This document shows, one piece after another, positions 9,346 to 64,000 of a DNA stretch of 64,000 nt. The translations under genes were made by a program, and so were the position numbers. Source of the DNA: Amoebophrya sp. A120 (lineage: Eukaryota; Protista; Dinoflagellata); assembly GCA_905178155.1 (NCBI GenBank), contig CAJINV010000005.1:1328438-1392437 (forward strand). Direction: 5' to 3'. Every line of letters starts with the position of its first letter. The stretch's first letter is position 1. The notes beneath the pieces were generated by a model that saw nothing but the letters and a program-made list of their open reading frames with translations, was not told where the DNA came from and ran no database searches.

Positions 9346-9606
9346 TATCAAATGTAAAAATGTCTGGGTCTGGAAAAGTGTAGACTTGTCATGCAGATTT
9401 TCCATGACCCGTAAGGTCTGAAATGCGGGACTTAGCATGACAGACTCTGCGAGGTTTCCGCCATGCCTGTCCTCCATGAGAAACTCCCTTCCAATTTGGT
9501 CAAAAGTGGACAGCTTTTGGCACTCATGCAACACAGATTTTTGCATGCTGGAGATTTACCATGACAAGTTGCAACCTTCCAGACCCAGACATTTTTGCAA
9601 TCCATA
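9346..9606. mobile_element. Introner family A copy in apparently non-coding DNA
   Basis: Family A TIRs; TSD cagac on both sides. Confidence 0.88.
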
Positions 9607-9686
9607 CAGACACCAGAAAGCATCTATGGAAAATTCCGAGGTAAAGTCGAGGATTCCTTCGACGTGTACGTGGTAATCACAATATA

Positions 9687-31806: not shown

Positions 31807-32024
31807 TGCCGAGAACTTGCCGAAAACTTTCCCCCGGACTTTCCCGAAAAGTCGGCGAAAACCTTCCGCGAAACCTTCCCCAAAAATTCTCCCGTTTAAA
31901 AGTCGACCAAAAGTTACAGACCGGGAGTTGAAAAGTCAACCAAAAGTTTTCGGGTCCGAAAATGATCCCGAAGCGGGAAAGTTTCGGGAAAGTTCGGGGG
32001 AAAGTTTTCGGCAAGTTCTCGGCA
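31807..32024. repeat. Internal hairpin (~43-bp near-perfect arms)
   Basis: tgccgagaacttgccgaaaactttcccccggactttcccgaaa versus tttcgggaaagttcgggggaaagttttcggcaagttctcggca. Confidence 0.85.
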
Positions 32025-33561
32025 GATTTTCGGCACTCAGACAGAAGATTTCGCCGCCCCCTCAAAAGCCGAAAAGCCTGAAGGCGTGGCTGCGCATCCG
32101 CCAGGCTTGCGCAGAATCCTGCTGCCCCCCCCCTTTTTTACATGGCTGAGGCGGTCTCCCCGAAAATGGGGACAGAGCCTCCTGGGCGAACTTATTGCGC
32201 GCGCCGGCGCAGCAAGATGTGAGGGGCGCCCCGCGCGTGCCCCTGCTGCGCCGGCGCCCTTTCTACTCGCGAAAAGCCGGCCGCGCAAGGTAGGCCGCCG
32301 CGACCTAGGCGGAGCACTCTGGAGCGGCGGCATGGTCTCGGCGCTTTGTATGTAAGTGCGGGGGGACGGCGAATATGAAAGAGAAAGGGGCAGGCCGGGC
32401 GGCCTCTAGCTAGCGCCAAAAGAAAGGCGCCACGCCAAAACGTGAGGCGCGGGCAGCTCCAGCGAAGCGCGCCACGCCATGCGGCCCGCAGGAACATGCG
32501 AGGCCGGGCCGCGCGGCGTGCTGCGCCCCTACTTCAATGCGCCAAACATAGCCGCCGGGGCGGAGATAATGAGGCCGGCGCCGCTTCTTTGCCCGCCGAC
32601 CTCTGCCCGCGCCACGTTTTTGCTTTTTCTGGGCCCGCCGTGCCGGGGCGGGTAAGGTTATGCCGCACGGTATGGCGGCCGGTTGGGGAAAATGGCAGGC
32701 GTTGGGCAACTTGCCAAAACGCCTTCCCGAAAGCCAACCCCGACGCTATCGGGCCGACCCGGGCACCGCGGGGGGCGCCCAAAAACCGAAGGAAAAGCGG
32801 GCCCATAGGATGCGGGCGGGCTTCGCGCGCTTGGCGCGTTTCTTCTTTTTTGCGTTGTGTGTTATTTTTCGCGCCCGCGCCTTTTGCAAAGCTAGCGCCC
32901 CCCGCTGAGAACCCGGCACAAGGGCGGCCGCTTTCGATTCGCGCCCGGTTTCGCGGCCCTGCCCTACGGCTTCGCTGTTCTGGCTTCGGGCGAGTTTTTT
33001 GGGGCGCCCTTTTGGGCACCCCAAGTCGCGCGCCAGAATCCCACGCGGCCGACGCCTGAGAAGGGTGCCACGTTTGCCGGCCCCCCTACGTCATTTTTTC
33101 AGTCTTTCTACCGGCGGCCGACTGAGCCCGCCGGCGACTGCATTCATTGAAGACAAAAGCAAACAGGCGGGCGCGCTTGGGTTTTTTTCATCTTCAACAT
33201 GCGAAAAAACGCGAGCCAACGCCCCAAGCCCCCGGCCGTTTTTGGCGGTTCTTGTCAGGAAAGCTGCAGAGATAGAGCCGGCCCACGGGGTCGCTACAGT
33301 ACATCTTACAAGAGAAGGCAAACCACCCAGGCACACAGGCTCGTGCTGGAGAGCAACATACCACCCAGAGGGGCCACGGGGCCCCCGCCCGCCGGCTCGC
33401 TTGTGGGGCGGGCCACCCGGGGGAGTTGCGTTATCCATTTCCTGAACCAAAGAACACCCCACCGGGGAAGCCCACCCAACCGGCAGAGGTCGGCCACACA
33501 TCGCGACGCCCGCCGCACGCACGGACGGCCTGGCGCGAGAGGTCGGCCCACCATCGCGCGC

Positions 33562-33597
33562 CATACCATGCGGTCCGACGTCGGACCGCATGGTATG
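33562..33597. repeat. Perfect 36-bp palindrome (imperfect copy at 30846-30883)
   Basis: cataccatgcggtccgac|gtcggaccgcatggtatg. Confidence 0.9.
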
Positions 33598-35164
33598 CTG
33601 CCTCTCTGCTTCTCTCGTTCAAACAGACGAAGCAGAATAGACGGGCAACAGAAATAGACAGGTGGCGCCACCACAACGCGCCACAGACCCATATCACGCG
33701 CCGGCCATCGGGGTGGCCCCCCGACCGCAGGCCCTTGACACTTCTGCCACCGCTAGCGAGACGAGCGGAGGAGCCGCCTCTGCCCGTTGATTGCAAAAGG
33801 GGGGCGCCTTTCTTTGGCGCGCGCTTCGGTCGCGTCGCGTAACCGCGGAAAGGCGGGCAGGATACAGAATACCGGGGCGCGACGGCCTCTATTTTGTAAG
33901 AATGGCCAAGCGGCGGGCCAGAATGTAGGGGGCTAAAGGTACGTAGGACCGCGCGCGGCCGGCGTGCCATCCAAGGCACCGCGGCGGGGCGGCGCGCCCA
34001 TTCGGGCCCTGGCAGCCAGTGCCATTGCTTATTTAAAAGGCGCTCAGGGCGAAGAGGGCCGACGCGCCCCGGCATTTCCGAAGCGCGAGGCGGCGATCAA
34101 CATCCGGGCGAATACTGAAAGGCCAAAGGCCAGCGCCCGCGCACCACTTCAAAAGGTGCACAAAATGCGCACAGGGCCCCACAGCGCTCGCGAATAATCG
34201 CGAACAACCGACCACGGAGGCGCTGCCCGTCCGATGCGCGGCGGGTGGCATTTCCCGCAGCCTGCTTGGAGGCGTCGATCAAAATGGCAGGCAGCTGGCG
34301 GGCACACGCCGCGGCGAAGAGGTGCCGCCCTTTCATGCTCTGCCACTCCCAAAGTGCGGACTTACCAGCAAAAGGCAGCACGGTCCAAACAATTGTCGCA
34401 AAGCATGGATTGCCGACGATCAAAATAGCGACTTTGCCAAAAGTCAAAGTAAAAGTTTTGGAAAAGTCGCTATCCCGTTTCAATTAGCCGTTTTCCCTTG
34501 TAACGACAGCAGGACTGCCAAGACATTTTTTTTCTTGGGCTCTCGCGGTCTGTGACTCTTTCACTTTCTCCGCTTATGTTGAGTTAGTTACGAAACAGAT
34601 GGACGTGGAACAGCGACTAGAAGTCAGGAGGACATTGAACAGCTACAGCACGAAGGACTTTGATAGCAGTTTTTTTATGTAATACGAGCGACATTCTTGG
34701 GGGCCAGCGCTGGCTTCATCTTACACCTAATCACGGATCCGGATGTCCAAACAATCACAAATACAAAGCGAGTTGTTGGGGGGGGTTTTGAAGAAAGTAG
34801 AAGGAGAAGGTTTTTATACAGTGTGTGCTCCGCAGGTGAAAGTGAATTTTGATTTTTTTCATTAGACTCCATCGTTGTAGTATTATCAGTACGCATTCCC
34901 TTTGGAGGCTTCTAATCTATCGCACGCCGCACTAGCTGCTCCTGGCGTGACAATTTAATATTTTTCGAAGTTGTAAATGTAAAGCAAAAACAAAACTGGG
35001 CGACTGTTCTCCTCCTTTCATCAATGCGAAGTAAATTCAAAATTTCGCCGTGATGTTGCACAAAGACAAAGCGTTTGCTTCAGGAGATCGTTTTCTACAG
35101 GAGCGTGTCCCAGCACGTCAATAAGGTAGTGTCTCATCATCTCCACCTACTTCACCCGATGCAA

Positions 35165-36775
35165 TTAGATCAATGCCCACTTTTCTCGCAGCAGCTTCTC
35201 GTGCAGTGGCGCCTTCCAAACCGGTCCTCCGCCCATGAGCATCAGTTCGTGGCTGCTGCACGGCGCCGTTGCTTCGTAGTCGCACTCCAGCTCTGCGTAC
35301 ACGTCCGTCACCAGCCAGCGCACCGCTTTCGCCGGCGTTAAACGGTCCTTCTCGGAGGAGCCGAACACGGTGAAAAAACTCGTCTTCCCTTTTTTCTCTT
35401 CTCCCTCCTGCCGAAACGCATCCGCCAATCCTTTCAGTTCCTTCGCCAGCAGCACGCAGTCGTCTTGCCAAACCAAAGAGGTCGAAACTTCCAGCCCTTT
35501 CGCAGTGTCCTTACCCCCCTCCACGCCCATCGCATCGAGCACCCGCCCGTTTTGCTCGAAGTCATACTTGTTGGCAACACACGATCCCGAGGACACCGAC
35601 CCCACGCTGGCAATAAACATCTCTTTCTCCTCACTCGAGAGGGCGGTTCGCAGCATCTTCGCGCTGGAGTTTCCAAAGGAGAACTGCACCAAGGGTTTGC
35701 ACAAGCCCTGACCCACGCAGGCGACGCCGCTCAGCACACTCGTCGGGACGTACTTCGAGGCGAACCGGGCGAGGCCGAACCCGTGCGGTCCCGCTATGGC
35801 GTTCTCAAACGTTACATTCTCAACTGTTACATGATTTGTCATGCAAAACTTCCATGAACCACCAGACAATCAAGCCACCTCGCATGACAAATCCCCGAAG
35901 GGCTAAACAGCGCCTAAATCTGTGCCGGATTTGTGATGCGAGAGTTGCAAGCTTGCCTCTTTCACTGTTGCGGTTCTTGCATCACAAATTCATGTAACAG
36001 TTCAGAATGAAACGTTTGGGAACGCCATACCCGCGGGCGAGGGGTACGGCACGTTCAGGGCAACGCCGCGGAGATCCGGGAGTTGTTTCTGGTGGGACTC
36101 GTGCGACAATTGCAGTTGCAGAAAACGCCGCAGAAACACCACCGCGTACGGGTGGCCAAGACAGCAGGCGTACACGAACATCTCGTCCAGGGCTTCTTGC
36201 TGCAACACGGCGAGGCAGTTCCGCGCGTGCAAATTCAGGTGGCGCTTCACGGTATCGTCCGCAGAAAAGGTCGGGTTGTTCACCACCTCGGGGGAAGTCT
36301 TCCCAAGCCCGGGACGGTCCACGGCGATGACGACCAACTCATTCGATGGCTTTTTAGACGCGGATGTGTGCGCGTTGGTAAGAACGCCGTCAGGACACCC
36401 GAGGCCAGATCCAGCAGATAAGGCTGCGGCAAAGTTCGAGTTGTCCTCCTGCTTCGTAGACAAGCCTTTCATCGTAGTTCCAGGAGCAGAACTGTTTTCT
36501 TGGAACGGCGCGAAGAACTCAATCACATTGCTGTCGGCGCCCATAGCGTGGAAGACGAGGATGGCAGTTTTCTTTTTCTGCCCTTGTTCTTGGGCAGCTC
36601 CCTGCTCATTCATCGGGGTTTGTCCGGCCTGGTGTCCCCGCCGAAGGGAGAGCACTCGATAGCCCACAGTTGTAGTTCCATTCCCGTCCTCAACATCGCG
36701 GTACTGGACAACACGCTCCTCAGAGCAGCGCCAGGTGTTGGGCATGTTGTTTGGAGAAGTGTTTGAAGTAGACAT
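35165..36775 (-). CDS. Alpha/beta-hydrolase fold protein, 2 exons
   Basis: ILVFHAMG, VIAVDRPGLGKTS, elbow region YACCLGHPYA, C-terminal FGSSEKD...SHELML; frames join over a family E introner. Confidence 0.75.
35795..36029. mobile_element. Introner family E
   Basis: Family E TIRs; TSD cccgc. Confidence 0.9.
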
Positions 36776-47213: not shown

Positions 47214-50200
47214 TCACGTCTCCTCATGCTTCATCGCCAGCTGTGCCATGGTCAAGAACTCCGCACAGGTCACGCCCCCGAAATGGTGCGGATCGTACTT
47301 CCGCAACAGAATCTCTAGGAGCTCCCGCGGCACGCACCGCCGCAGGTCGTGGAAGGTCACCACATACGGGGTAGTCACGCTGTGCAAGTCCACTTCTAGC
47401 GATTTTCCTTCCCGAATCCGGTGCAAATCGGATAGGTTTTCGGTTTGTCTGTCGGTCGTGCGAAGGCCTGCGCTATTTCTATCGAAATTAATGTCGTTCC
47501 GCACATCAAACTTGTTGTTGTTGTCGATTGTTGCGAAGTCCAGTTCTTTCTGGAACATTTTCTTGCTTCCAAGAGATGAACCGCTGCTCTGTCCCAAGCC
47601 GCCGCCAGCTCGCCGCGAAGAAACGGAGCTCGATCCCTGATGCAATTTCACGGCCTGCTGCCTCTTGGTCAGGGGGCTCAGAGACTGCGCTTTGGATGGA
47701 GAGGTGGAACGATTTTTGGCGCTTTCTTGCAGTCTTATTTGCTGCTTCGTGAGTTGGCTCTGAAGAGGTGGACGACCGTGAAGATGTTCAGAAGGTGAAG
47801 GGAATGGATTCACAATCTCATCTCCATAAACTCGGCTCTTCCGTTCATACAGCTGTTTGTGATCCATGCTGGTCACGTTCGATTCCAGGTGGTGCCCCGC
47901 CGGCTGGCTCAGCAGCTGCACCATCCGTCGCTCCGTTGCGGTCTTGGCGTAGGGGTTGGGCTTTAGGCGAACTTTCGTCGGGGAAAGCGATTTGCTGCGG
48001 ACAGCGGTGGGAGAATTAGAATTCATACCACTTGAATGGTCGCCGTGAACATTTTTCGCCACGTTCAACACACCGTGCAGCAGGCGCGCGAAAACGTGGA
48101 TCAAGTCGTCTTCGGAGTACTCGCCGACGGCTTTCCTGCGTAAAATCCGGTGGTATTCCAGCAAACCTGATTTTTCCAATTGCTTTTGCTCGGAATCCTC
48201 CATCGTCTGCCGTATTTGCGTTAGCGTGTTGTTGAACTGGTCCCGATTTTGGAACTTGTCTTGCTGGTGAAACGGATGCTGGTCGGTGTTTGTCGTTCCC
48301 GCAGGAACATGTTGATCTGTCCCGCCACCGTAATTGTCGACCTCCACTAAGTACGCATTGACGTTCTTGAAGTCCACGTTGTCCGTTCCTGCAAAAAGCG
48401 CCCGGTCACTGTCAGCCGTCGACATGTCGATGATCGTGTTTTTCCGAGGATGCTCTCGCAACAGCAGCTCCTCAACGACCGCTGGGTCAGTTCGCCGCGA
48501 TTCCGGCGCCGGAATCCGCGGCAATTGTCGACGAGAGGCACTGGAATTCAAATTCTCGTTTTTTCTCGTCGGTGAAGCCGAGGAAAAATCGTTTCTCACC
48601 ACCTTTCTGCCCGTTTTCTCATCCCATTTCACCTGTCTTCTTGCCAACAGCCGCTGTGCTTGCGGACTTGGACTCCTCGGGTAAAAATTGTCGGCAAGGT
48701 GAGCCTGCGTTGCTTTCTTTTCTTCAATCGGCAAGTACCTCTGCACCTCTGATTCCAAGCGATTTACCATCTGTCTCGTCGGCACCAGCTCTTGAAACGG
48801 CGTCTCGTTACGGAGAATACCGCCTCGCTGCCGGGCGTGCAGGTCTGCCGCGGTACGGAGATTGGGAGATTTCTGGATCGGATCCGGCTTGTTCGTGTCG
48901 GCCATCGCGTGGCGTGATCGTTCTTCGTCTTTCGCTTGCAGAAGCGGATCTTGTTCTCGTGCATTTGCGGCTTGCTGCACGTGCACACCAACTCCATCTC
49001 CAGCATCTTCTCCCTCCTCCCTTTCCATATTCCCCCCACCGCCACCACCTCCAATTTGACACTCTTTCTTGGCCGCTTCCCGCAAAAACGCGAACTTCTG
49101 CTCGTGCCGTTCCAGCCACTGCTCCACCCACTCCTTCCTCTTGTCCTTCTGCTCAACCTTGATTTTTAGCGACACTGTCGCCTCGGCTTTGCCGATGATC
49201 TGCGCGACCAACATCTTCACGGAGTTGTTCACATAGAGCAATTCTCTTTCCTCATCCAAAATCTTCTGCTTGGCTTCATCTGATTTGTCCGTGTATTTTG
49301 AACTCAAACTTCTCGCTTTCGCGGAGAAAGGGTTCATCTGTTGACTCACAGAAGTTATCTCGCCGTCCTCCGGCAATCGTCCGCCGTCGGTAGTTGCTCC
49401 TGCTCCATCCGCGTCTTGCTGGTTCTCAACAGCAGCACCAGCACTATCATTCCTCATCCACTTCTCCTGCAAAGCTTGTCTCTGTTCCTCTCTCGCTTGC
49501 TCCACCTCCTGGTCCTCGTTGTTATTCCCCAGTAGTCTCGCCGCAACCTCATTCGCCATGTGATCGTATGCAAGAAAAAAACTGTGTAAGTGTAAATCTG
49601 TGATGCAGAAAATGCCAAACAGTTACACTTGTCATGCTCGACATGCATGACCGGTTCGTTTCCTATGTCTTTTCCCTTTGTATCTGCGCATAACAAGTTT
49701 GTCCTGTCATGGCAGACAAACTTGTGATGCTGTTTTCCCAAAAGACTTACACTAACACAGTTTTTTTCTTGGATAGATCGGAGTCGTTCATCAAACGCTT
49801 TCTCTCCTTCCTCTGCTTTTCCAATTCCCGCCTTTCCTGCCCCAGCTCGTTCACGAAATCCGCGTGGAGCAGCTTCCTTTTCAGAAAATCGTTTTCCTGC
49901 ACCTTCTTCACGGTCCACTGCCCCGCGAACCGCAACACCTCGCTGGCGGCGGCGGTCATGAGGTCGTCGGGGATGATTGGCGATCGCATGCCGATTTGAG
50001 GTGTGGACGCTTCGGAGAAAACCGGCGCGGGGTTTTCGCGGAGGAGGTTACCGAGATGCAGCGGGTCGTTCCGCAGGACGATGGAACGGGGGGAAGGGAG
50101 ATGAAACAGAGATTGGTCCTCGTCGGAAGGGCCAGAAGTTGCACCTTTCTGTGCTTGATTCCCAGTTGTTGCGACGTTTTCGTTTTGTGCAGCTAGCTCC

Positions 50201-53200
50201 GTGTAGCGACGTAGTTCCTCATCTACTTCTTGTAGTTCTCTGCCATCATCATCTTCCCCTTCACTCCCTGCGCTCTTCTCCGACCCAGAAGCGTCCTCTC
50301 GACCTTCATGTTCAGAGGCACCACTCGAGCTTTGATGTTCTAGCATCTTCCCCTTCAACCTCTCCCTCGCCTCCGTTTCCCCAAACACAAAACTCGAAGC
50401 CTGCGAGGTAGACCCGTGCTGGCTCGAAGCCGACGACGCTTCCGCGGAAGACCCCACTAACGTCGGGATTTTTTCACTGGGCGCTCGGTCTGCGCGGCCG
50501 CTGTAGGGGGCCGGGTCGTTATCGCTGTCCGCAGCATTCATTTTCGACGCTTTTCTCCGGTCCATCACCTGCTGCAACTTCAACGCGGTACTGGCCGCAG
50601 CTGTGATTTTCTCGCTGATTAAGCTCACCGACTTGATCTCCTGCTCGATCTTCTCGCAAACTCGCCGGTGCACCCGGTTGATGATTTTCTCGACCGCCGC
50701 AGCGATCTCCTCCTTCTCCCTCGGCGACCGAAGCTCTTCTGGCGTCGAGGCGCCCGAGCGGGAAGAGGTCGCGTTGGACTGGGATGTGGATTTGTCGTGT
50801 TTGCTCGTTCCGCTGGTCACCGTGTCTTTCTTCCCCTCTGACCGGACGGAGCCGGTAGGATGGCGATGGGCCCCTGCTTGCTCTTCAGTTGTTTCCGCGA
50901 CAAAAGGGATTTTTTTCTGCACGTCGTCCGCCGTGACAACGACGAGACCGCCGGTTTGCAGCTCACCTTCCTCTCCTGCATTTTCATCTTCCGCCAAAAC
51001 CGCTTCGAGTCTTTGCTTCTCTTCCAACTCCAGCCGTTCTTTCTCCTCTTTTTCCTTCCTCACCCGTTCTTCCTCCTCCAATTGAATAGTGACGAGCTTG
51101 CCCTGGAAAGAAGTACTCAACTCCGCGGACAGTTCTTCAGCTCCCTTGTCCGGTGCGTCGGGGTCTTTTACGCCCAGTTTTTGGTCCAACTCCTTCAGGC
51201 GCGCGGACACGTCGCTGGGCGGTTTGAATGCATCGTCCTTTGCGGCAGCTAGTACCCCTTGTTGATGTTCACTCTGGTCTTTATCCTGCTTCCCTGTCGC
51301 ACTTCTTGGGGATTTTGAAGCTACTGAGCCAGCCGGTGATCGTTGCATCTTCGCTTTACCCCTGCTCAGCTGGTCTAGCATGTGAAATCTCTTCGCTGCC
51401 TCCGCTAGGTGTCGCAACTCCGCGACCCAGGCCTTTTCGCTCTCCGCGAGCACAAAAGGCTCGAAGGAGAAATCGGCTTTCTTCTGCTTCATCGCGTTAT
51501 CCATGGCAGTTTGAATTTCGTCGTTCTTCCGTTTCGTTTCCTTGATGATCTCCAATAAGTTCGCAGCCAAAATCAGCCTCGTCGCCTCCTCCGCCTCCTT
51601 TTGCCGGCGGATCTCCTCCTGTTTTTTCCGCTCCGCCTCGCGCTTCTTCTTCGCGGCAGCTTTTTTTCGTTTCTTCAACTCTTTCGGATCGACGGTCGTT
51701 TCGTCCTCTTTGTGGGCGCCTTCGGAAGCTGCAGGGAGAGTTTGGTCTTGTGTTTGTCGTGGTCCTTCTCCTTCGGCTGGTGTGTTGACGCCGTGTGCCT
51801 CGCCGCCCTCGGCTGCAGCTACGTATGCGTTGGCGGAATCAACAGGTACCGCTGTTTCTTCGTAGTTCCCTATGCCTCCAGCGCCGTGAACATCTTTTGT
51901 GGTTTCCGTCGCTGACGTTTTAGATTCACTGCGAACCTGAATAGTAGCAGTGTCTGTGGGGTCACCAGTCTGTTCATCTGGAAGGTGCTGACCAACATCT
52001 TCTGCTCCTCCGACCATGACGGGAATAAAAGTTGTGGCAGCTGCGTTGACACCTGGATCAACATCCTGACCCTCGTCCACAGTAGGGGGGAGCGGAATCG
52101 CTGCAGTTTCCACTTCCGCCAAACCGTTTGCGACTCCATTTTCAGTCACTGGCACTGCAATGAGCGGAACGGCTGCAGTGTCCAACCCCGGATCTACTTC
52201 TTCAAGAGCCCCAGCATCTTCCGCAAAACCAGGTATCATACCAAGCGGAATCGGTATGACACTTCCCGGGTCCGGATCCGCGGGACTAGCACTGTTACTG
52301 TTCTCCACTTCTGCCCGATGCTGCCCCTCACGGTTTGCTCTTCCGGGGCTTCCGAGATGGCTTTTCCGGTTCCGACCTCCAGACGGTGATGTTGTGCCTG
52401 AAGAAGCACTAGCCTGCTGCTCATAATCGTGGTCAGCTTGGTAGTATTTCTGCTTCCTCCTCTTCACCGACTCCACTTCAGTTTCCTCCACCACACCGAA
52501 CCTCACCGCAATATCCGGATCGGAATCCGACGCCGGCGCGATCGCCGTAACGACAGAGGTGGTGGAAAGAGGGAGAACTGACTTGTTCCCTGTCCTCTGT
52601 TGATCCGTCGCGGAAAGGGGCTGCAGCGGTTGCCCATCAGGGCCGGTTTGCTGCTCTCGCATTCTGGCTGCGAGAGGCTTTTTCTTTTCTCTACTTCGGT
52701 GCAGCTCGTCATCGGACGTGATAATCTGTAGTGTCGGTTTCGGCCGGGTTACTACCTGCTGCCCCGCTGCATCATAAACTGTTTCATCTCCGTCGCCCAA
52801 AAAGCCTTGCTCCCGATCGAGAATCAGTTCCTCCTTCTCGAGCTGCAACTGCGCTTCCTGGTCGATCTGTTCCTGCATCAGCACCAACCCCTCGCCTTTC
52901 TCGTGTTCCAGCAAAACCATGTCCTCGCCCGCGTGGTCGCGACTGCGGGTCCTGGACCGCGCGCGCGCTTTCGCGTTCAATTCGTGCAGGTCCTGGGAAA
53001 CTTCCGGGTCGTCGGGTAGAAAGTCTCCTCGACGGAAGCTTTGGTCTTGGTGGGAAAATTGATGATCACTTGTGCCCATTGTTCCTGGCATCATGTAGCC
53101 TCCGTACACGGCTGCTGCTGCGCTCGTGACGTTCGTGTCAAATCTTAACCTCGTGCCCAGTGGCCCGGTGGCCTGCGGAGCACCAGTGGAAAATTCGTCG

Positions 53201-53370
53201 TCGGAGGGGGACGGTGCGGGATGTTCTTGACCGCGAGTAGAGGTCTGTCGCTGCAAATTCTCAGCATCATCGAGATCATCCTCCCCGGGAGCTGCAGCTG
53301 CACCGCCGTCAGCATCAGCGTCTCCCCCTCCTTCCGCCTGCTCCACAGCGGCCGCCCGTTGCGCTTCCAC
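47214..53370 (-). CDS. Large coiled-coil / low-complexity protein with a C-terminal EF-hand-like motif; 5' end unresolved
   Basis: ORFs of 1207 and 781 aa join in frame (NDSD|HMANE) over a family D introner; KYDPHHFGGVTCAEFL near the C-terminus. Confidence 0.7.
49567..49775. mobile_element. Introner family D
   Basis: TIR tatgcaagaaaaaaactgtgtaagtgtaa / ttacactaacacagtttttttcttggata; TSD gatcg. Confidence 0.9.
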
Positions 53371-53623
53371 CGCTTCGAGTTTTTCCAGAATAGCCTTGTC
53401 GATTGTTGTCGTAGAGAAAAGGTTTCGTAATTATTTTGCTGAGCGACCGTACAAGCTCAGTACCCGACACACACACACGCGATCTAGACCGAGAGACCCA
53501 CGAGGTCTTGATCTTGAAGTGATCTGTGTTTTCCAGATAGGACTAGAACAGAGCACATGCTACAAACATGTAGTCTGGGCGCTAATTCCAGAGTATCCCA
53601 AGGTAAGATGTGTGTGTTTGATA

Positions 53624-56600
53624 TTATAGAGCGTACGGCTTCTCATAAATACTGACGTCAACATTGTTTCGAAATGCGATGTCGATGGCTTTGGCGATCA
53701 CTGCGCAGTATTCTTTTTGTCCGCCTGCGCATGAGCCTTGTCCAATTCTGAGCGGGATTGCTACTGATTCTGTCTCGTCTATGATTGACAAAATAAAGTC
53801 GTACAACGCGTTTTTGAAACGAAAAAGGCGAGCTTCTGCTGAGTCATCTGCTGTAAATGCTTCTACCGGTACTACATCTGATGGTCGTGGGACTCTGTTG
53901 AGAACGGGTTTTCCTGGCCAGACCATAGCGTAAATATTGACAATTTTTCCTATCACTTCATATCCTCCTAGTGGTTTCGCAGAAAACGGCTCTCCATAGC
54001 GGTTTGCCTTCGGATATTTTGCAAACAACTGTGCCGCCAAACCGCTGGGTTTGCACGGGACGCAGCATGTGATGTGGACTATAAACCTCTCGCGCGCATA
54101 ACAAATATCCATAATTCTTAACTTGCTCCTAGCGAGCTCGGGAAATTGACGAAAGTAAGGTTTGCGTAAAATTTTTGTAACTTGTGCGCCTATTTCTGTT
54201 TTTTCTCTGTCTCTACCCCAGTCGTGTAGATGCACAGACAACAACAACGTCCAATCTTCGTGTGCTCCGTATACGAGTGGGCACTGCGCTGTGCAAAATA
54301 CCTTGGAACCCTTCTTGTACGTGCAGAACTGTACGAAGTTGGACGCCAGGTCGTAGAACATGGGGTTGATCATCGGCAGCATCAGTGCAAAACGTGGTCT
54401 TTGAGCTACTGGAATTTTTTGGAAGTTGGCGAGGAAGCGAGCTGTTACTATTGCGAGGTGTATTGGTGGGAACCACCAGGAACGCTTGTTATAAAACAAG
54501 TCGAAGATATCGAGCGGATGATTGTGTGCCGTGTAGTATTCCGGGAAACGCCAGTTGTGGTGATCTGCAAAACAGTCGACATTCAGACCCGGTATCTCGC
54601 GCATCACAATGCTCCACGAGCGCTTACACAAAGTTTTATCCGGAAAGGGATCTTTAAACGCAAATAAATGCTCTTCGTGGCGTGACAGTGCGTCGGCGAT
54701 TATGTTCACTTCGCCCGCGATCTTGGCCGCGACTATTTCTGTGCCTGTGCTGGATGCGAAGGATGTCAAGCTTTTCGTCACGTTCTTGAGAATCGGCGTT
54801 GCCGCGGAGCCCTTGTTCGTGGTTCTTTTTGCCGTTGGATTGTCGGTCTTGATCAGGATTATTTTCTGGTGAAAATATGCGTCTCCTAACTTCTCCCTGG
54901 CTGCGTCTAGCACGTGCTGAACTGCCAAGGCCTCTAACTCGTTGATGCTGGCAGTATCTGATGGTGGGAAATAGAAGGAATTTTATTCTTGTAGATTTGA
55001 TGTAACATCAACAAGTATATGTGAAAACCAGAAAAAACAAATCAAAACTACCTGGCACTTTTTCGTCGAAGAGTCCATGGAAATAGTGCTCCGCTACGGT
55101 GCCGCCCCAGCCTCTGTTTCTTCGGTCTTCGCAGTTCTCGATGTCGCCTTTTGCAGCGTCCATGTAGACACCGATAAACAGCTCTGGTCCCAAAGACGCG
55201 AAAAAGGCTTTTCCGAAGGCCAAGACTTCGTGAGACCAAATAAAAGTCTGCTCGCCGTTGAAGAACATTTGTCTTGTGTGGTCGGTCGACAGCAGGTCTT
55301 CCCACAAATCCAAGTCTTCGAAAGCGGCGTCCGAGATTTCGACTGGCGGGTTGAACTGCCTGTTCAGCTTCGCCCACTGCTTCGGTGCTGTTGAAGCTAC
55401 CAGCAACTTGTTCAGCTCGTCCAATGGCCCGCGTGGGTGGATAAGCGCGCAGGAACCTAATTTTCCTTTGATGCTGGCTACGTCTCGGGCTTTCGCTTCT
55501 TTGTTTCTGCCTGCCTGCTTGAAGTCTCGCACTGCTTGCAGGTATTCTTTGCGTCTTTTAGGCTCGAGCATGATGTTGTACGACCTCGGGTCGGTGTTGA
55601 AAACGTTTCCCAGCCAGGGGAAAATTGTTGACGGCTGTATTAGCTTTGATTCCTTGTGGTGAATCTTGATGCCCATGCGGGTTAGGATGTACACTGCTCG
55701 GTCTAGGTCGAACTTGGCTTTATCGAAGTGTGGTTTGCCGTCGACCGGGCTGGTTATAAATCTCACGTCGTCTACGTAGTCGAGTGCTGGCGACGATACT
55801 CCGTTTCTCTTCGCTGCAGCGAGAAAAGCTTTCACGAAGAAATCGTTCTCACCCGGTGCTGGTCTCGGTATGCGTGTGAAAACAGTTTTTTCGGATTGAT
55901 GCACGACAAAAAACCACATGCATCTGGCTAGGTTTATAGTGGAGCCTGTGAGAATTTTCGCTGATCCGTTAAAAAATGTTTTCACGAGATACCGATGCCA
56001 AAAGGACAGTACAAATGTCCTCCTTTTTGTACTGTCCCTTCGAGATTTATTCCAAGCATGCGGCGAAAACGTGCGTGCACCAACCAGTGGCCGAAGGAGT
56101 CCATGAAGTCGATACCACTCCCGACTGAGTTCGGCTTCAGCAGCAGAAACGTATCCCAGTAGGTCTTGTAGTTTACCTCGGTGGAAAAAATGGACTGGTT
56201 TATCAGGGCCCACTCGCTGCTGTAGTCACTGATTACCCTAATCTTGTCGTCGCGTTGGAACAGCAGATTTCCTGGCACGCACGTCAAGTCGCTGGGGTAG
56301 TCGCACACTTCCACATCTTCGCCTTTGTCGTTCTTTTCTGATTTCACATCGTACAGGATGATCTTTTTGCACTCGAAGAAGCGCTTGAACTCGTTATTGT
56401 AGACCTCCGGGCTCTGCTTGGCCGCCGGGTAATTCTCGCATACTATCGGGTCCAGGTGCTCTGCGATCTGTTGGAACTTTATCCCCGTGCAGGCTTTCAG
56501 CAAAACTTCTGGCTGTAGTCCAAACCGTACGCATTCTTCTGGATTTATCGTTAGACCCGCGAAAGCCTGATCGTCCTCTGCTTTGCGCCACCTGTCGTTC

Positions 56601-57136
56601 GGGCCCTCTTGGTCTTGCAGCAGTTTTCTAACTGCTGCTCGTGTCAGAGGTGCACCCGCCTTCTCGTAGTCTTCATTTTTGAAGGGGGAGCACGGCGTGA
56701 AATTAAACGGGTCGCCGAACTCATTCCCGCATGTAAACAGGCGTGACAGGTCTACGGTGTCGATGTCGCACTGGTGGCTTCGTGGCGCTTTTCCCGGCTG
56801 CGGTAAGTAGCTGTCCCATGTCACCACTGCTTCCTGCGGAAAGATCAGCGAGGGGTCGTCCCAGCACGCGTCATATTCTTTCTGCAGATCCTTCTTGCAT
56901 GGCCTCGGCTTATCTTTCATGTTGGATGCCGCATTTTCTTGTGCTATCCAGTGATGAATTTCTTGTGCCGGCTCCGCTACTTTTGGTGGCTTTCCTATTT
57001 GGGCTCCGCAGAAGGAGGCGTGCTGCGATTTGTGTCTTTTTGTCGCTCTCCTGTCCTGAGCATCTTGTGCGCGCAGCGATGCCGCTGAGCGGCCTATTTG
57101 CACCCCGCAAAACATAACGAGAGGTGACGAACGCAT
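53624..57136 (-). CDS. Pol: reverse transcriptase - RNase H - DIRS MT-like - macro domain (3 or more exons)
   Basis: RT: IRVISDYS, IDFMDSF, PFGIG|PAP, YVDD, WLG. RNase H: YMDAA..GWGG, SINELEALAV, TDN, NIIADALSR. MT-like: VDCFADHHN...WWFPP. Macro: DICYARERFIVH...GLAAQLF...VAIPLRIGQGSCAGG. Introns 55864-55991 and 54958-55051. Confidence 0.85.
55869..55991. mobile_element. Introner-like element inside the RT coding region
   Basis: TIR tatgcgtgtgaaaacagtttttt / aaaaaatgtttttcacgagata; removing the element plus 5 nt restores PFGIGPAP. TSD copies are diverged (1/5). Confidence 0.7.
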
Positions 57137-58089
57137 CTTTTTATCTCATTTTTCGTTCATTTTCGATCAGATCAAAAATCCGAAACCTAGATAAATGACA
57201 TTTTGCGTCTGCGCATGCTGCCGCTAGGCCTTCATGTGCGTCCGCGGAGGACGTGGAGAGGAGGTTCGCATTTTTTTGTAGCCAGTTTGATTGTATTTCA
57301 CATAAAATCTCATCTGAGCATCCCCTCAGTTTGCGCATGAAATTACGCTCAATTCTCTCCAGTTTCTGAAAATAACATATTCGCTCGTGAGGCCACCTGC
57401 GCCCACTCACAAACCAAACATGTGTATACGACATCTGTGAAACTGTGTGAGAAGCTTATTGGAATCGACGTTAGCGGGATCGGGCGACGAAATCAAAATG
57501 ACACTGACTATTGGAAAAGACGCAACAAAGTACTGAAAGAACCGGTGCCCTTGCACAGATTGTGATCAAAACGAAAGAAGAACAATCGTGCTGTCGTGGT
57601 CCTCTGTCGTCTGTGTTTTTGTCTATCTATTTTCCGTTCTTGTTGAATCAAGTGTTTCTACAAGATGAAAAAAAAATTTTTGAAATCCACGATGAGATTG
57701 GCACACATCAGTCTAAGTGCTGGTGGACTACATCAAGGGCTTCTTGCGGGTTCACGACCTCTGCATCAGAATCATCATCCGATGATGAAACCACTCGCTC
57801 GTCTTCCGATGAGGATGTGTGTCTGCTCGGTGGCAAGTCGTCATCTAACCTGGTCGAGTGGTATAAAGTATTTTTGTCATGCCAGTATCATCATGATGCA
57901 AACAAAAAACATGTGCCATTGCGCGAAAAGGAAAGAAAGGTAACATTATACGGCTCCGGGTTCAGTTCCAGGTATCGAGCCAAGGCGCGTGCGATTAGTC
58001 GTCCGTTAGTCTGGACGAAGTTGCGTACTGCGATCTGCGACCCGACGATCCGTCCAAGACAACTGAAGAAGAAATTTTTTTAAAGTTGT

Positions 58090-58719
58090 TTAGTCAGAAT
58101 CCGAAGACGGGTATGAGCTATCGTCCTCGGACGAGTCCATAACAATCGGCTTCTGCAAATCTTCCTTCTTGAATTCCTCCTTCTTCTCATCATGCAGAGC
58201 TTTTCCTTCTTTTCGCAAGTTGAACTGCTTCAGGCGGGCTTCTTTGTACTTCTTTTTCTCGTTGTTGTAGAAATTCGCGATGTCGGCTGAGGACTGCTTG
58301 TGGTAGGTGCGATAGATCTGCACTGCGGTGTGGGCGAACTGGCGCGCGAGGAGCACAGACGCCCACTTGCGTCCCATCATCACCTCGTCCTGGGCCGGAT
58401 AATTCCAGATTTCCGACAAGTGGCTATACAGCGAATCAATCGCAGACGCCATCCCCTCCGCTAATTTTGCTTGACATTTTTGTTTGGCACAAATTGCCTC
58501 CAGCGTGTCTAACAGCACATTGCAGGTGCTGCGTAACTCGTTGGCATCGCAATTTTTGGGGAGGGTTTTGCGCATGCACCAGCGATAAGAAGTGACAACT
58601 TGCGAAAAGGTGGAATTTTTCTGCTCCTTCGTACTCAAATCATCAATCATGGACCGCATCGACTTTGCCTGCCGAAGCAACGGCAGTTTCTCGTAATAAC
58701 CGAGATTTCCTAGGTCCAT
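58090..58719 (-). CDS. Hypothetical helical protein within the retroelement
   Basis: 209-aa ATG-started ORF with an acidic tail, co-oriented between YR and RT. Confidence 0.5.
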   Translation of the reverse strand: MDLGNLGYYEKLPLLRQAKSMRSMIDDLSTKEQKNSTFSQVVTSYRWCMRKTLPKNCDANELRSTCNVLLDTLEAICAKQKCQAKLAEGMASAIDSLYSHLSEIWNYPAQDEVMMGRKWASVLLARQFAHTAVQIYRTYHKQSSADIANFYNNEKKKYKEARLKQFNLRKEGKALHDEKKEEFKKEDLQKPIVMDSSEDDSSYPSSDSD

Positions 58720-59457
58720 TTTATTGCGTTCGGTACTAGAAGGATATGTGGATTTCTATTAATTGTCCCTGAAATTTTGGAAATGACAACAAATACCGAC
58801 AAGATTCCGCCCGCTGGACTACTGCGTAAGAAATGCATGCGTACATCAGCGATTGCCCGTTGATGATGCCGATTTCGATCAGAATATACGGAACCTTGTG
58901 AATTTTTGATCATGAGAGTCCGGTAATGAAAGGCTTTCGCTGTGCCTAAAGATGCATATAAATTATGGAATCAAAACTAGAAGTACCATCACGCGCAGTA
59001 TGGTTGTCGTATAGAACTTGGCCAGGAAGGTCCAGTGCTGTGCGGACCGGAAATTGCGGAAGAAATGGTCCACGAGCATTCTATCGTCATCATAGACTGC
59101 GCGCGCCATTAGTTGCGGTACGGTGCTGAGACGCTTTAATAGCAACCAGCATTTCTGGATGGTCACCTTGGTCACAAAGCACCAGAAGCGCCATCCCGAC
59201 AAATGCCCTAGCGGTCGTTCCATTATTTCTGCTGTAAACTGAGGCTGAGCTGCTAGTACTAGGCTAATGATTGTTTGTGGTGATGAAATTTTGGATCTGA
59301 TTTGCACCGTGTGCTACCGCATATATTTCTCTCTGCGTCGCGCCTGCGCTCTGAACTGCTGACGCTCTGTGTCAGTAGCTGTAAACAAGGACAACATATC
59401 ACGTCGTGCAAGAAGCCTGCGTGGCTGAAGTTTACATGCTTGGTGTGAGATTTTTAA

Positions 59458-61797
59458 TTATGAATCTTCGTCACATTTTGACAAAAAATCTAAAATTTTT
59501 CCGTATACTGCCGCATCGCAAGAGCTGCACGTGGCGTGAGAGAAAAGCCTAGGGCATTCCTCCTGGAAGGATTCTAAAGAAGTTCTGTCCCATGCCACCT
59601 TCTCGACCTCGCGCGAAAATTTGATCGCGTCGTCATCGTGTAGGTATATCGTGTGAGCGCGGTCAAGTGCCCTCAGGCTTGCGATATTCGCATAGGTTTC
59701 TAAGCTTTTGGACGAGTGTCTGTTTACCATCTGTCTTAGTTCCATACTCGAGATAGGTGCGTAGTGCACATCGAGACAGTAGCTGTTCCTCCATCCGCCT
59801 TGATAATAAGCTAAACGTCGTGAGACATCATGTTCAATATAATGCTTTGCCCCTCCTTTGCGCAGCGAAATTGGTTTTTCAGGAACCGTTCCTGACAAGG
59901 CGTAGCTAAAAAAGGCTTTGATGTCTTTCCTAATACCATCTTTGCTAGATTTGAATGCACCCCTGGTTTTAATGTTTGCATTCCCTATCACGAAGAAAAA
60001 GGCATCGTCGGGGGCCATTTTTCGTCCTAGTACTATGTCAAAGAAGGCGCGGGCAAATCGCTGGTAATCGGCTATCATTCTTGTGAAATGCGTTGGCACC
60101 CAGGCTTCTGAGCCGAATGAGAGCTGGTCACTCTTTGCTTGAGAAACGAAAATTGCGTACTGCGGTCCCGACCCTGGTGACGCGGTGATTGTTACATCAC
60201 GCAACCGCAACAGTCTGACCTCGTCGTTCCTCCTAACACAGAAGAAAGCTATGACAACTATTGCTAATTTTTGAAGTCGTAAAACTAGATCTATATCGTT
60301 GCACGACATGTTTCTCAAGACTTTCTTCTGGAAATCTCCGTCGCTGTCTACCATGTGCTTGTGGTGTCGCTGCCAGTGCTCCCATTCTGTCGTGTAGGCG
60401 TCGAGCATCTCGGTGGTCGTCGGACACCACTTTGCATCCAGTGGGGCTCCATGGTGTGCTTCTTTTTTGAACCTGTGATATGGAAATATGTGATGATTCG
60501 AGACGAAGTTCCATAATTTATGCTGAGAGAAGACATCATCAAACTTTTAGCCACGAGAAACAAATAAAATGTACCCTTTCCATAGCTTCTGGAAGAAAGC
60601 GCCTCTGTTCTTCGTGGTGTAGCCGCTTAACTCGATTCTCGAGGAATTGAAGGCGTTTATCGCCGCGCTCAATTGTAAAAAAGCGCCCCACCGTATTCGA
60701 TTCGAGTCTTCATTTTTGTAGGCGCTGTGGACCGAGTGAACATGTGCGAACGTCACGAACAGAAGCGATGCCTCGGCATCCGTGGTTATCGGCCACAAAA
60801 TGAAACCAAATTCACGAGCGACGGCTGGGATCACCTTCGACAAGATCGATGTATAGCTTCTCGACGTACCCTCTGTTATAGAGGAGTTGGCGTGGTCCGC
60901 AGTCGCCGATTCTAATAACTGGGCTGCTTGGTCAGAAAGCGGGAAGGCACCGAAAATCTCGCTGATTGCGGCCTTTATTGTAAAATCGATCTTGAGACCT
61001 TCTTCAGAAACTGGCGTGTAATTCTTAGCAGCTTTTCCTTTTGCATGCTGGTAAAAATGTAAAACACTCGATATCGACGGAGTGGGAGTCGTGAGCACTA
61101 TGTTTCCCGGTTTCGATATGATGGCGATGGAGTCTGACGTGGCGTCGCTTGACGACGTTGCGCTCGATGACATTGAACTCGACGACGTTACAGAACCAGC
61201 TGCTGCTCCTTGCGAAGAATTGCATGCACTGGAGATACACAGCGATACATCAGACCAGGCGTTCATGCACATTAGTGCGTCTAGCGGTTTCTTCAACGCC
61301 TCTTTCCGTAATTCCATGTGCTCGAGTATTCCCGTAACTCCGAATAGCGTTGTCGAGAATTTATGCTCCAACGCTGGTGAAGAGACGGCAGTCACGAATC
61401 CAGACGACGGCACGATTGCGCTGAAATCCTCTAGAGCCTCCTCGTGCCAGTCTTCCACACACACTAACTCTGTCTCCACAGCGTCCATCAGAGAGATGTA
61501 GTACTCAGGTGATTTCCGCTTCGATGATGCAGGGGCGATAGATGCGGCTTGTGGTGGCGCGACGATCGGCTTTTTGCTTGATTTCCTTTCAGCGTTCGCT
61601 AATTCTTTCAGCGATGCTGCTACCGCCGCTTGCTCAGCAATTTTGTGTAACTCGCGCTGCCTGACCTCTTGGCCAAGAGCGTCTTTTATCGCATCACTTG
61701 CAATTAATTTGCTCATCGTGAAGTGACTACCTACTAAGGCTGTCATAGAGGTTGCTGGAAGATCTGTGTGTGCCAAAATGCACTCCGGACGCAACAA
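59458..61797 (-). CDS. Tyrosine recombinase (2 or more exons)
   Basis: SITEGTSRSY; LWKG|FKK across GT-AG intron 60473-60574; catalytic FFCVRRNDE, AKSDQ, ISLRKGGA, GGWRNS...VHY. Confidence 0.85.
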
Positions 61798-62011
61798 CAG
61801 GAAGAACCGGGCAACAGACGAAAGAAAGAAAATAAAAGAAAAGGTGAGGACTCACTAATCTCTTGCCATGATCTCTCCTGCGTGACACAACTTCAAAGAA
61901 CATGCCACCGTCGGCGTCGAGCTACATTGACGCCATGGAAAAGGGGGCGCTTGTATCTGCCTTGACTCATGTATTCTTTTATCGATAAAGAAATTGAAAC
62001 AGGTTACTTCG

Positions 62012-63797
62012 TCAGTTGAAGGGGTTGGCATAAGTAGTGACGTTAGAAATGTTGCGCCCTTTTCCACCATTGTTGTTTTTGGTTCTTTTCGCAAACGGTT
62101 GACCTCCATTTCCATTGAACGGACGGAGCAAATTGTTACCAAGACCTTTTTGAAAATTTTGGTTACCACCAAACTGCTGGTTCCCACCGAACTGCTGGTT
62201 GCCACCCCCGTTCTTTCCCGCAAGGACGACCGGGCAGCTCTTGTTCCAGTGGGCTTCTCCGTTGCACTGCGGGCGTGGGCACTTGATGTAGCACGTGTTG
62301 TTCGAGTCCGAGCAGGCCTTCAAGCCCATCTTCTTCCCCACGTGATGGTTTCCTGGACCTTTGCCGCCCATGAGGCAGTTGACACAGCTCTGGGTTTTCT
62401 GCATCCACTGCGACAAAATCGCTTCGCTCTTGGCTTTCGCCGTTTCCATCGCAGCGTATGCTCCTGCGGTGGTGCGCGGTGCCTCGGTCATGATACGGTT
62501 GATCTCGTTGTACAGCTGCTGATTCTTTTGCTGGATCGCGTTGTTGCCCGTGGGGTTCTGTCCCAGCTCGGGGAAGGCGTTCCTGCCGCTGCCTCCTGCG
62601 ATCATCGACATGAAGCTTCCGCCCATCTGCATCATGCGCTGCATAATACTGGGCTTGCATAAATTATCGCAAGCCGCCTGTGTCATTGCACAGGCGTATT
62701 CGAGGTTATAAAAAGCCTCGTCGACCGCGGACGCGACGTACTTGTCAGGCAGCCGACCCCGGGCATTCTCCAAGGCTTAAAACTTGCTATCTTTTTTCTA
62801 ATGTTACGAAGGAAAACAAAAAAAAGAAAGTGGCGGCAATGCCGCCAAAGACAACACCCAGCCCGAAGGCCACCGGGCAGAAATCACGTTGGGCGGGACA
62901 ACAAAAACGAACGGGGCCAAGAACTTCGCGGCCAAATACCGAACGCCGCTGGGCTCTTCCCATCCAGAGAGAAAATGGCCCAGAAGGGAGGCGGCCCCGA
63001 GGGGGGGTCAGGCGCGAGATGCAAGATTAGGGGTGGCGGCAATTCGCCCACACAAAAAGCCGGGAAGCCGCCCGGCAAAATGATCAACACCAACCGCCTA
63101 GCCGGAAACAGGCCGGGCGGGGCGCCTCTTGCCTCCGGCTAATTCCTTGCCTAAATCGATGCTAAGGCAAGCGACTAACTTCGCGCCTAATTTCCTGGCT
63201 AAATCACGGCTAATTTTTTTCATTGCAAATCCCCCCACATTCCCTATGCTGGAATTAGAAACAAATTAGACGCGAAATTAGAGCCCAAATTAGACCCCCC
63301 CCCGCCCCACTTCTGCGCCCCTCGTGAACCCCGGCCGGGCGGGCCGGGGCCATTGATGTGCGGCCCGAGACAAATGGAAAACAATCGCGCTGCCTTCCTT
63401 CTGGGGCGCAAACATCGCAGGGGCGCAAACCTTGGCAACCCCGGGCCGGATGCGCCCCGGGCCCTGGAGACCCCGGGGCGGGCAATCTTCGCCAAACAAT
63501 GCTAAAAACGCAAATCCCCAGCGCCCCAGCTTCCAAAACCTGCAAAAACTACCGACGACAAAACCCGTGCCCGGACTACCTCCAGAACCCTCGGGGCCCC
63601 AGACTCGCGGGGCCACGACGAAAAGAAGCAAGGGGGGCGCCATGCCGGAACAATGTGGGGCCCACAATATTAGAAAAAAATCGGCAGCCTTTTAGGCGGC
63701 AAATTTGCGAGCCATCGGCCGGCTGATACTTCTTTTTGAGGGCGGCCGCAAAATCTTTGATGAGAAAATACCTGGCTTTTGTAATTTTTGTGATTAC
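62012..63797 (-). CDS. Gag-like protein with CCHC knuckles, interrupted by a hAT-like insertion
   Basis: CVNC...H...C and CPRPQCNGEAHWNKSC knuckles, GGNQQF tail; removing 62746-63725 plus 8 bp gives in-frame FAAALKKKYVASAVDEAF. Confidence 0.7.
62746..63725. mobile_element. GC-rich hAT-like non-autonomous element, related to 169-1430
   Basis: Left end caggcagccgaccccgggca matches the 169 end; right end ...tcggccggctg; TSD gtacttgt/atacttct; internal AAATTAGAC repeats. Confidence 0.78.
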
Positions 63798-64000
63798 CTA
63801 GCGAACAATCGCATGAGAGTTATGTGGTGGTCTGCATGGATATTTGCTTGTGTGTCACGAGTCAGGACGAGAGCAACATGAGAGGAAATTGTCTGTACAG
63901 TTGATAATTGTAATTCAAGGACAAATTCTTCTTGGCCACGGAGTTTTTGGTCAGGGCGGCTGACTTTTTTTCGTAGAAGGTCACGGGCCACAAGAAATAT

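What the first reader, a model, noticed from the sequence alone, without database searches (positions are those of the whole stretch)
53431..64000. Intron-containing YR retrotransposon with gag-YR-ORFs-RT/RH/MT-macro architecture
Seen: all retroelement domains are co-oriented, and conserved motifs are split by frame-restoring introns: GT-AG 60473-60574 in YR (LWKG|FKK), GT-AG 54958-55051 in RNase H (VP|DTASINELE), an introner in RT motif B, and a probable GT-AG intron at 57850-57951 in an accessory ORF. Known: retrotransposition through spliced RNA normally erases introns. YR upstream of RT is the trypanosomatid VIPER/TATE layout, whereas an MT-like domain after RNase H is typical of DIRS. Inference: a distinct YR-retroelement lineage that replicates from unspliced RNA, or a domesticated locus that has gained introns.
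Basis: partly seen in the sequence, partly recalled or inferred. Interest (0 to 1): 0.88.

Follow-up and report, generated by a model that had tools for sequence, protein, structure and literature searches.

The report
Intron-carrying tyrosine-recombinase retrotransposon family
This is a low-copy jumping gene of the tyrosine-recombinase (DIRS/PAT) kind whose genes are interrupted by predicted introns, some shared between copies and some missing from one copy, so it likely copies itself from incompletely spliced RNA, which is rare for elements that move through RNA.

Summary
The element is real: gag-like ORF, tyrosine recombinase (YR), accessory ORFs and a 1096-aa RT/RNase H/MT-like/macro-like polyprotein, all on the minus strand. 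Removing the three claimed inserts restores frames that align to relatives. Read contigs show about 3-4 copies, an edge at 53402 and a 181-nt terminal repeat at about 13 copy equivalents, so it is a mobile family, not a domesticated gene. The introns are polymorphic: one contig lacks the RNase H intron, one lacks the RT introner, and about two copies lack a 988-nt insert in gag. Those copies keep a newly found gag intron candidate. No intronless joint was listed for the YR intron. No RNA junction could be tested. YR-before-pol is shared with unnamed protist relatives, and shuffled YR/pol order is published for dinoflagellate DIRS. Introns in YR retroelements have precedent from recall only. 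Best reading: a divergent PAT/DIRS-type family in an introner-invaded genome that gains introns while resident and passes some on through incompletely spliced RNA. New variant of a known kind; interest 0.5.

The parts
53402..53582 (-). 3' terminal repeat of the element (181 nt); host sequence begins at 53401
   Evidence: single-copy contig ends 30 nt inside it; an X8 contig matches 53402-53582 exactly with other flanks on both sides; about 13 copy equivalents; no second copy in the window
53624..57136 (-). pol: RT, RNase H, MT-like, macro-like; 1096 aa once two inserts are removed
   Evidence: profile of relatives, 476 bits
53627..54175 (-). predicted macrodomain at the end of pol
   Evidence: ESM Atlas 0.94, 24 of 30 hits in the Macro set; phrog_335 'phosphatase' E 0.007; low-confidence model, Foldseek macro rows at E 0.03; wide search without a clear match
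54302..54730 (-). MT-like (Dam-like) domain, approximate limits
   Evidence: aligned to relatives, two of which hit Pfam Dam; no direct Pfam hit
54958..55051 (-). GT-AG intron in RNase H, absent from one other copy
   Evidence: joint 54960->55066 with 15 exon letters between, depth 41.9 against single-copy 44.7, repeated in X2; letters checked
55864..55991 (-). 128-nt introner-like insert with terminal inverted repeats in RT motif B, absent from one other copy
   Evidence: joint 55863->55992 at depth 43.5 and 27.2
57710..58719 (-). accessory ORFs of unknown family (58719-58090 and about 58062-57710), possibly one spliced gene
   Evidence: no family hit; two displayed substitutions synonymous
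57850..57951 (-). candidate GT-AG intron, in frame, with stops
   Evidence: no relative and no RNA to test it
58963..59397 (-). small accessory ORF with an in-frame stop that a 54-nt GT-AG candidate intron (59264-59317) would remove
   Evidence: a copy 9% diverged covers this stretch without gaps
59458..61716 (-). tyrosine recombinase ORF, 718 aa once the intron is removed
60473..60574 (-). GT-AG intron in YR, in frame with a stop; no intronless joint listed
   Evidence: not among the 3 joints; 12 joints were not shown
62012..64000 (-). gag-like ORF with a Cys/His knuckle-like motif, open to the window edge (5' end outside)
   Evidence: no family hit
62745..63732 (.). 988-nt repeated element with short imperfect terminal inverted repeats, inserted in gag of this copy
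   Evidence: joint 62744->63733 at depth 75.2 and 37.8; depth over the insert about 9 times single copy
63798..63898 (-). candidate GT-AG intron in gag (101 nt), kept in copies that lack the 988-nt insert
   Evidence: opens a 299-codon frame from the window edge; contigs 63733-64000 run through it

Best explanation
This is a low-copy YR retrotransposon family of the PAT/DIRS type whose genes carry predicted spliceosomal introns, and which likely makes new copies from incompletely spliced RNA, so that some introns are inherited and others are lost. Shown: the coding layout, 3-4 copies, a repeat edge at the element end, inserts present in some copies and absent in others, and frames kept open around the inserts. 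Inferred: the host's abundant introners and other TIR elements land in resident copies; inserts that the host can splice leave gag, YR and pol usable, so they persist; the spliced mRNA makes the proteins; RT copies a full-length RNA that is not always fully spliced; YR integrates the cDNA circle at the terminal-repeat junction (the DIRS/PAT model). The young-looking RT introner and the 988-nt insert are most likely gains after integration; the canonical RNase H intron is more likely a precise loss in one copy.
For: Depth is single-copy up to the element end and about 3-fold inside it, so copies are not segmental duplicates that include this flank. Contigs lacking the 988-nt insert run through the gag intron candidate. 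A copy 9% diverged covers the 54-nt candidate without gaps. No joint at the YR or accessory intron among the 3 joints. One contig at single-copy depth lacks the RNase H intron at the predicted exon join. Of 12 displayed indels outside the 988-nt insert, 10 lie outside modelled exons that make up 79% of the element; of 17 displayed exon substitutions 10 are synonymous. The host genes hold many TIR introners. DIRS-1 can reverse-transcribe RNA that keeps an engineered intron (PMC7192593, passages).
Against: No RNA read or contig shows any splice junction. Contigs are short and cannot be phased, a filter drops some, and 12 joints were not shown, so sharing of the YR intron is inferred from absence. 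The gag and 54-nt introns are candidates without a homologue. The contig lacking the RNase H intron seems 4 letters longer than an exact join. The indel and substitution rows are the tool's best-supported subset (394 and 599 substitution rows hidden). This copy's gag is broken by the 988-nt insert unless that too is spliced. Gain of both pol inserts after the copies split fits the data as well as loss.
Confidence: 0.5

Rival explanations
1. All introns were gained in resident copies, and shared introns spread at the DNA level: gene conversion between copies, or a DNA circle released by recombination between direct repeats and put back by the YR. Copies made through RT are intronless where the RNA was spliced.
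For: Introner-rich host; fresh inverted repeats and an empty site for the RT insert; both inserts missing from another copy lie in pol; the closest contig relative L001 shows no intron-sized break in its pol match.
Against: The repeat boundary coincides with the element end; several candidate introns would have to be spread together; no DNA-circle route is shown for this family.
Confidence: 0.3
2. The element is a dead relic; the inserts are never spliced and simply break it.
For: Broken gag in this copy; 4-nt frameshifts in another copy; no transcript junction found.
Against: Three AT-rich inserts of 94-102 nt with GT-AG ends, each removable to a clean frame; no other stop or frameshift in 1096 + 718 codons; indels avoid exons.
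Confidence: 0.1
3. A domesticated locus that gained introns like a host gene.
For: Intact frames and host-type introns.
Against: Three to four copies, a terminal repeat at about 13 copy equivalents, the whole element kept rather than one domain, an insert in gag.
Confidence: 0.05

Closest known systems
PAT-like YR retrotransposons (Pat1, Toc, Kangaroo; PMC4157794 and PMC3266345, passages)
   Same: RT/RH followed by an MT-like domain; YR; gag-like ORF with a Cys/His motif as in Pat1-like; a terminal segment that occurs with different flanks
   Different: YR upstream of pol in the same orientation; accessory ORFs between; macro-like tail; introns; split direct repeats not shown
Symbiodinium DIRS (SymbioDIRS; PMC5890265, passages; figure 1e and the main supplement not seen)
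   Same: Divergent RT poorly matched by Pfam; separate YR ORF; shuffled integrase/Pol order; extra domain in Pol; A-coding-B-A-B repeats reported
   Different: No Dnmt3 domain here; those were annotated as intronless; whether the RT clade is the same could not be tested
VIPER/TATE (PMC6681497, background section and passages)
   Same: gag-like, YR, RT/RH listed in that order; split direct repeats with a non-autonomous A2-B2 derivative (SIRE), which could parallel the excess of terminal repeats here
   Different: VIPER lacks MT (PMC3266345); no reference sequence was available for a tree
Penelope-like elements (PMC8557442, passages)
   Same: Retroelements that keep introns through retrotransposition
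   Different: Different RT class, GIY-YIG endonuclease, no YR
Amoebophrya introners (PMC7789003, section 10 and passages; PMC12130899, passages)
   Same: Short intron with inverted repeats and non-canonical or shifted splice sites; many TIR families in host genes
   Different: Here the target is a retrotransposon's RT; no second copy of this insert in the window; the host's identity was not tested

Membership tests
Order DIRS (YR retrotransposons) | RT and RNase H of DIRS type | tested here: met
   relatives hit RVT_1
Order DIRS (YR retrotransposons) | tyrosine recombinase instead of DDE integrase | tested here: met
   Atlas 0.95-0.96 with Phage_integrase and NDC10_II sets; weak match to YR of relatives; own fold model unusable
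Order DIRS (YR retrotransposons) | gag-like first ORF | tested here: inconclusive
   position and Cys/His motif fit; no family hit
PAT-like | MT domain after RT/RH | tested here: met
   aligned to relatives with Dam hits
PAT-like | split direct repeats A1...B1-A2-B2 | tested here: inconclusive
   one 181-nt terminal repeat with other flanks elsewhere; no second copy in the window; 5' end outside the window
DIRS1-like | inverted terminal repeats with internal complementary region | tested here: inconclusive
   no long inverted match to the 3' end within 52000-64000; 5' end outside
DIRS1-like | YR ORF overlapping or following pol | tested here: not met
   YR lies 2.3 kb upstream of pol
Ngaro | no MT domain | tested here: not met
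   MT-like domain present
VIPER/TATE | gag-YR-RT/RH order | tested here: met
VIPER/TATE | no MT domain | tested here: not met
VIPER/TATE | RT/RH falls in the VIPER-like clade | not testable with these tools
   no named reference proteins could be fetched; tree has unnamed rows only
SymbioDIRS-Dnmt3 | Dnmt3 domain in Pol | tested here: not met
   no DNA_methylase hit; the pol tail is macro-like
Introner (insert 55864-55991) | inverted repeats at the ends and an empty site | tested here: met
   joint
Introner (insert 55864-55991) | repeated family, spliced from RNA | tested here: inconclusive
   no second copy in the window; no RNA cover for a test

The most novel reading that the evidence does not exclude
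An undescribed protist clade of YR-first, MT-bearing retrotransposons, one family of which is stably intron-rich in every gene (five to eight introns), carries a macrodomain on Pol, and packages unspliced or partly spliced full-length RNA as a rule, so that it ferries introners and spliceosomal introns to new sites and records intron gain and loss copy by copy.
Probability: 0.25. Interest if true: 0.75.

Novelty: new variant of a known kind. Interest (0 to 1): 0.5.

Why it matters
Retroelements are expected to lose introns in each cycle; Penelope-like elements are the usual exception. A family with introns in gag, YR and pol that differ between close copies would allow intron gain (by introners) and loss (by reverse transcription) to be read off one small tree, and would test which RNA a YR element packages. 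The macro-like domain would add an ADP-ribose-related accessory function to DIRS Pol. Novelty is limited because YR-first order is known or shared and, from recall, introns were already noted in some YR retroelements.

Tried and rejected
No whole genome is held, so copies could not be collected. No RNA holder listed. RNA runs X4-X6 gave 0 reads on 52001-64000, host flank included: no test. The RNA-guess contig sets X7 and X8 cover the flanking host genes at depth 1-11 but the element hardly at all (X8: 53402-53582, 56450-56787 and a trace near 64000); no joint shown; this is no evidence on expression. YR homologue search: none at E 0.001 among 1187 candidates, lengths 185-590 only. Close relatives of the RT piece: none in viral or metagenome contigs; the alignment scan gave 15 loci, one in the same clade (L001, without a YR on its 4.4 kb). 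Single-sequence folds were poor (pLDDT 44 and 35); PDB sequence and phage tblastn searches for the macro part found nothing clear. A suspected intron near 61763-61857 was rejected: no frame-restoring join, and another copy has indels there up to 61735, so it is read as spacer. A 10-letter likeness between an X8 loose end and 63836 was set aside as chance, since it falls in the gag intron candidate. Likeness among the introns is slight (3, 7 and 20 of 500 shuffles reach it; 10 pairs tested) and may be composition only. Cluster look-up for names could not be made. Earlier findings: none. Literature searches turned up no description of an intron-bearing YR retrotransposon or a macrodomain in DIRS Pol in the passages read; Goodwin and Poulter 2004 is not held.
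Full report
Observation. The region holds, on the minus strand, a gag-like ORF (window edge to 62012), a YR ORF (61716-59458), accessory ORFs (59397-57710) and pol (57136-53624). The RT insert is 55864-55991 with imperfect inverted ends. Removing it and the RNase H intron gives one 1096-aa frame, which a profile of 20 relatives aligns without a gap at either joint (476 bits). Removing the YR intron gives 718 aa, weakly aligned across the joint to relatives. Many other GT-AG pairs would also reopen these frames, so frame restoration alone is weak; homology and DNA empty sites carry the case.

Domains. The window's own proteins have no Pfam or NCBIfam hit for these domains. The RT-RH piece finds 28 proteins at 25-45% identity among 1.84 billion; of 24 scanned, 9 hit RVT_1 and 2 hit Dam. 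The Atlas places the YR part with phage-integrase-like clusters (0.95-0.96) and the pol tail with Macro clusters (0.94). The macro call has only weak further support and stays a prediction. The YR has R, S-L-R, W and Y in the usual order, with the His of the recalled H-x-x-R motif replaced, as in relatives P0005 and P0015.

Copies. Contigs of runs X1 and X2 (one sample, possibly the window's source, so not independent) show single-copy depth up to the element and a median of 2.9 and 3.1 times that inside. At some positions all laid contigs differ from the window, mostly synonymously, so the window's own short contigs may be filtered out and the count may be four. The edge is 53402. An X8 contig matches 53402-53582 exactly and has other sequence on both sides; this segment stands at about 13 copy equivalents. 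It is a terminal repeat, but whether the ends are split direct repeats cannot be told, as the 5' end lies outside the window.

Intron polymorphism. One search listed three joints. One, at single-copy depth, removes the RNase H intron: its 15 intervening letters equal the exon letters 55055-55069, though the stated coordinates imply 4 extra letters. One, at single-copy depth, removes the RT insert. One, at about 1.7 copies, removes a 988-nt repeated element from gag; at the empty site gag reads on, and a further GT-AG candidate (63798-63898) opens it to the window edge. The contigs lacking the 988-nt insert run through that candidate. A copy 9% diverged covers a 54-nt candidate at 59264-59317 without gaps. 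No joint was listed at the YR or accessory intron; one search showed 15 of 27 joints. Of 14 displayed indels that I classed, 2 in the 988-nt insert were dropped; 10 of the other 12 fall outside modelled exons. Of 20 displayed substitutions, 17 are in exons, 10 synonymous. These rows are a subset chosen by the tool. They point to purifying selection on the frames between copies; one copy also has a 4-nt insertion in YR.

RNA. No test was possible (see Tried and rejected). Splicing is predicted, not shown.

Relatives. In an RT/RH tree of 29 rows (12 of 41 scored rows dropped as too short, among them the two closest, P0001 and P0002), the window's protein lies on a long branch in a 99/98 clade of 21 rows, apart from ordinary DIRS- and Ngaro-like contigs. 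That clade was gathered by searches seeded from this protein, and it has no named member. Three members are EukProt gene models with YR ahead of RT, RNase H and the MT-like domain (P0005, P0032, P0033); P0015 shows the same order. These are predicted models, so they do not inform on introns. YR-first with MT is thus a feature of a wider protist group, not of this family alone.

Host. Host genes in the window carry several families of short TIR repeats, one at very high depth. This resembles the introners described for Amoebophrya (PMC7789003, section 10 and passages; PMC12130899, passages). The host's identity is an inference and was not tested.

Mechanism. Because the repeat boundary coincides with the element's end, the copies most likely arose by transposition, not by duplication of a larger block. 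Introns shared between copies then passed through the cycle, and a copy lacking one shows either precise loss or later gain. I favour incompletely spliced RNA as template (0.5), with precedent in DIRS-1 carrying an engineered intron (PMC7192593, passages). DNA-level spread of introns gained in place is the main rival (0.3). A dead relic (0.1) and domestication (0.05) fit poorly.

What is known. PAT-like elements have MT and split direct repeats, Ngaro and VIPER lack MT (PMC3266345, PMC4157794, PMC3783388, passages), and structural features are homoplastic in this order. Symbiodinium DIRS have divergent RT and shuffled integrase/Pol order (PMC5890265, passages; figure and main supplement not seen, and they may bear on clade and order). 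Penelope-like elements retain introns (PMC8557442, passages). From recall only, the abstract of Goodwin and Poulter 2004 names spliceosomal introns among the features of some YR retrotransposons; the paper is not held. Also read in passages without finding a match: PMC6681497 (plus background section), PMC12477816, PMC13465315, PMC6338049, PMC5718144, bioRxiv 10.64898/2026.05.21.726589 (supplements closed); the text supplement of PMC7789003 has no mention of DIRS.

Verdict. A real, divergent YR retrotransposon family that works like a PAT/DIRS element; membership of PAT-like is open until the ends are seen. The combination of introns in every main gene, copy-to-copy intron differences and a macro-like tail was not found in the papers read. 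New variant of a known kind, interest 0.5.

Noticed in passing
window 49562-49779: Host TIR introner with depth above 100,000 at its end against 25 for single-copy DNA in X2, so thousands of copy equivalents.
   Followed up: no
window 5326-5592, 9346-9607, 15508-15768, 20987-21251, 23860-24110, 28527-28779; 6169-6377, 11464-11679, 19211-19429; 10377-10623, 12040-12274, 35795-36030: At least three further families of 210-265 nt repeats with inverted ends inside host genes.
   Followed up: no
window 29343-34503: A 5.2-kb GC-rich (0.65-0.70) block bounded by 65-nt inverted repeats, with a 690-nt internal inverted repeat; likely a large non-autonomous TIR element.
   Followed up: no
window 49747-53401: A long host ORF is open right up to the element's 3' end, so the element may sit in an exon or just before a splice acceptor of this gene.
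   Followed up: no
P0005, P0032: Related gene models end in a cupin/JmjC domain or a DEAD helicase; accessory domains or gene-model fusions.
   Followed up: no
window 58090-58062 and 58986-58946: Further possible short GT-AG introns that would join or extend the accessory ORFs; untested.
   Followed up: partly
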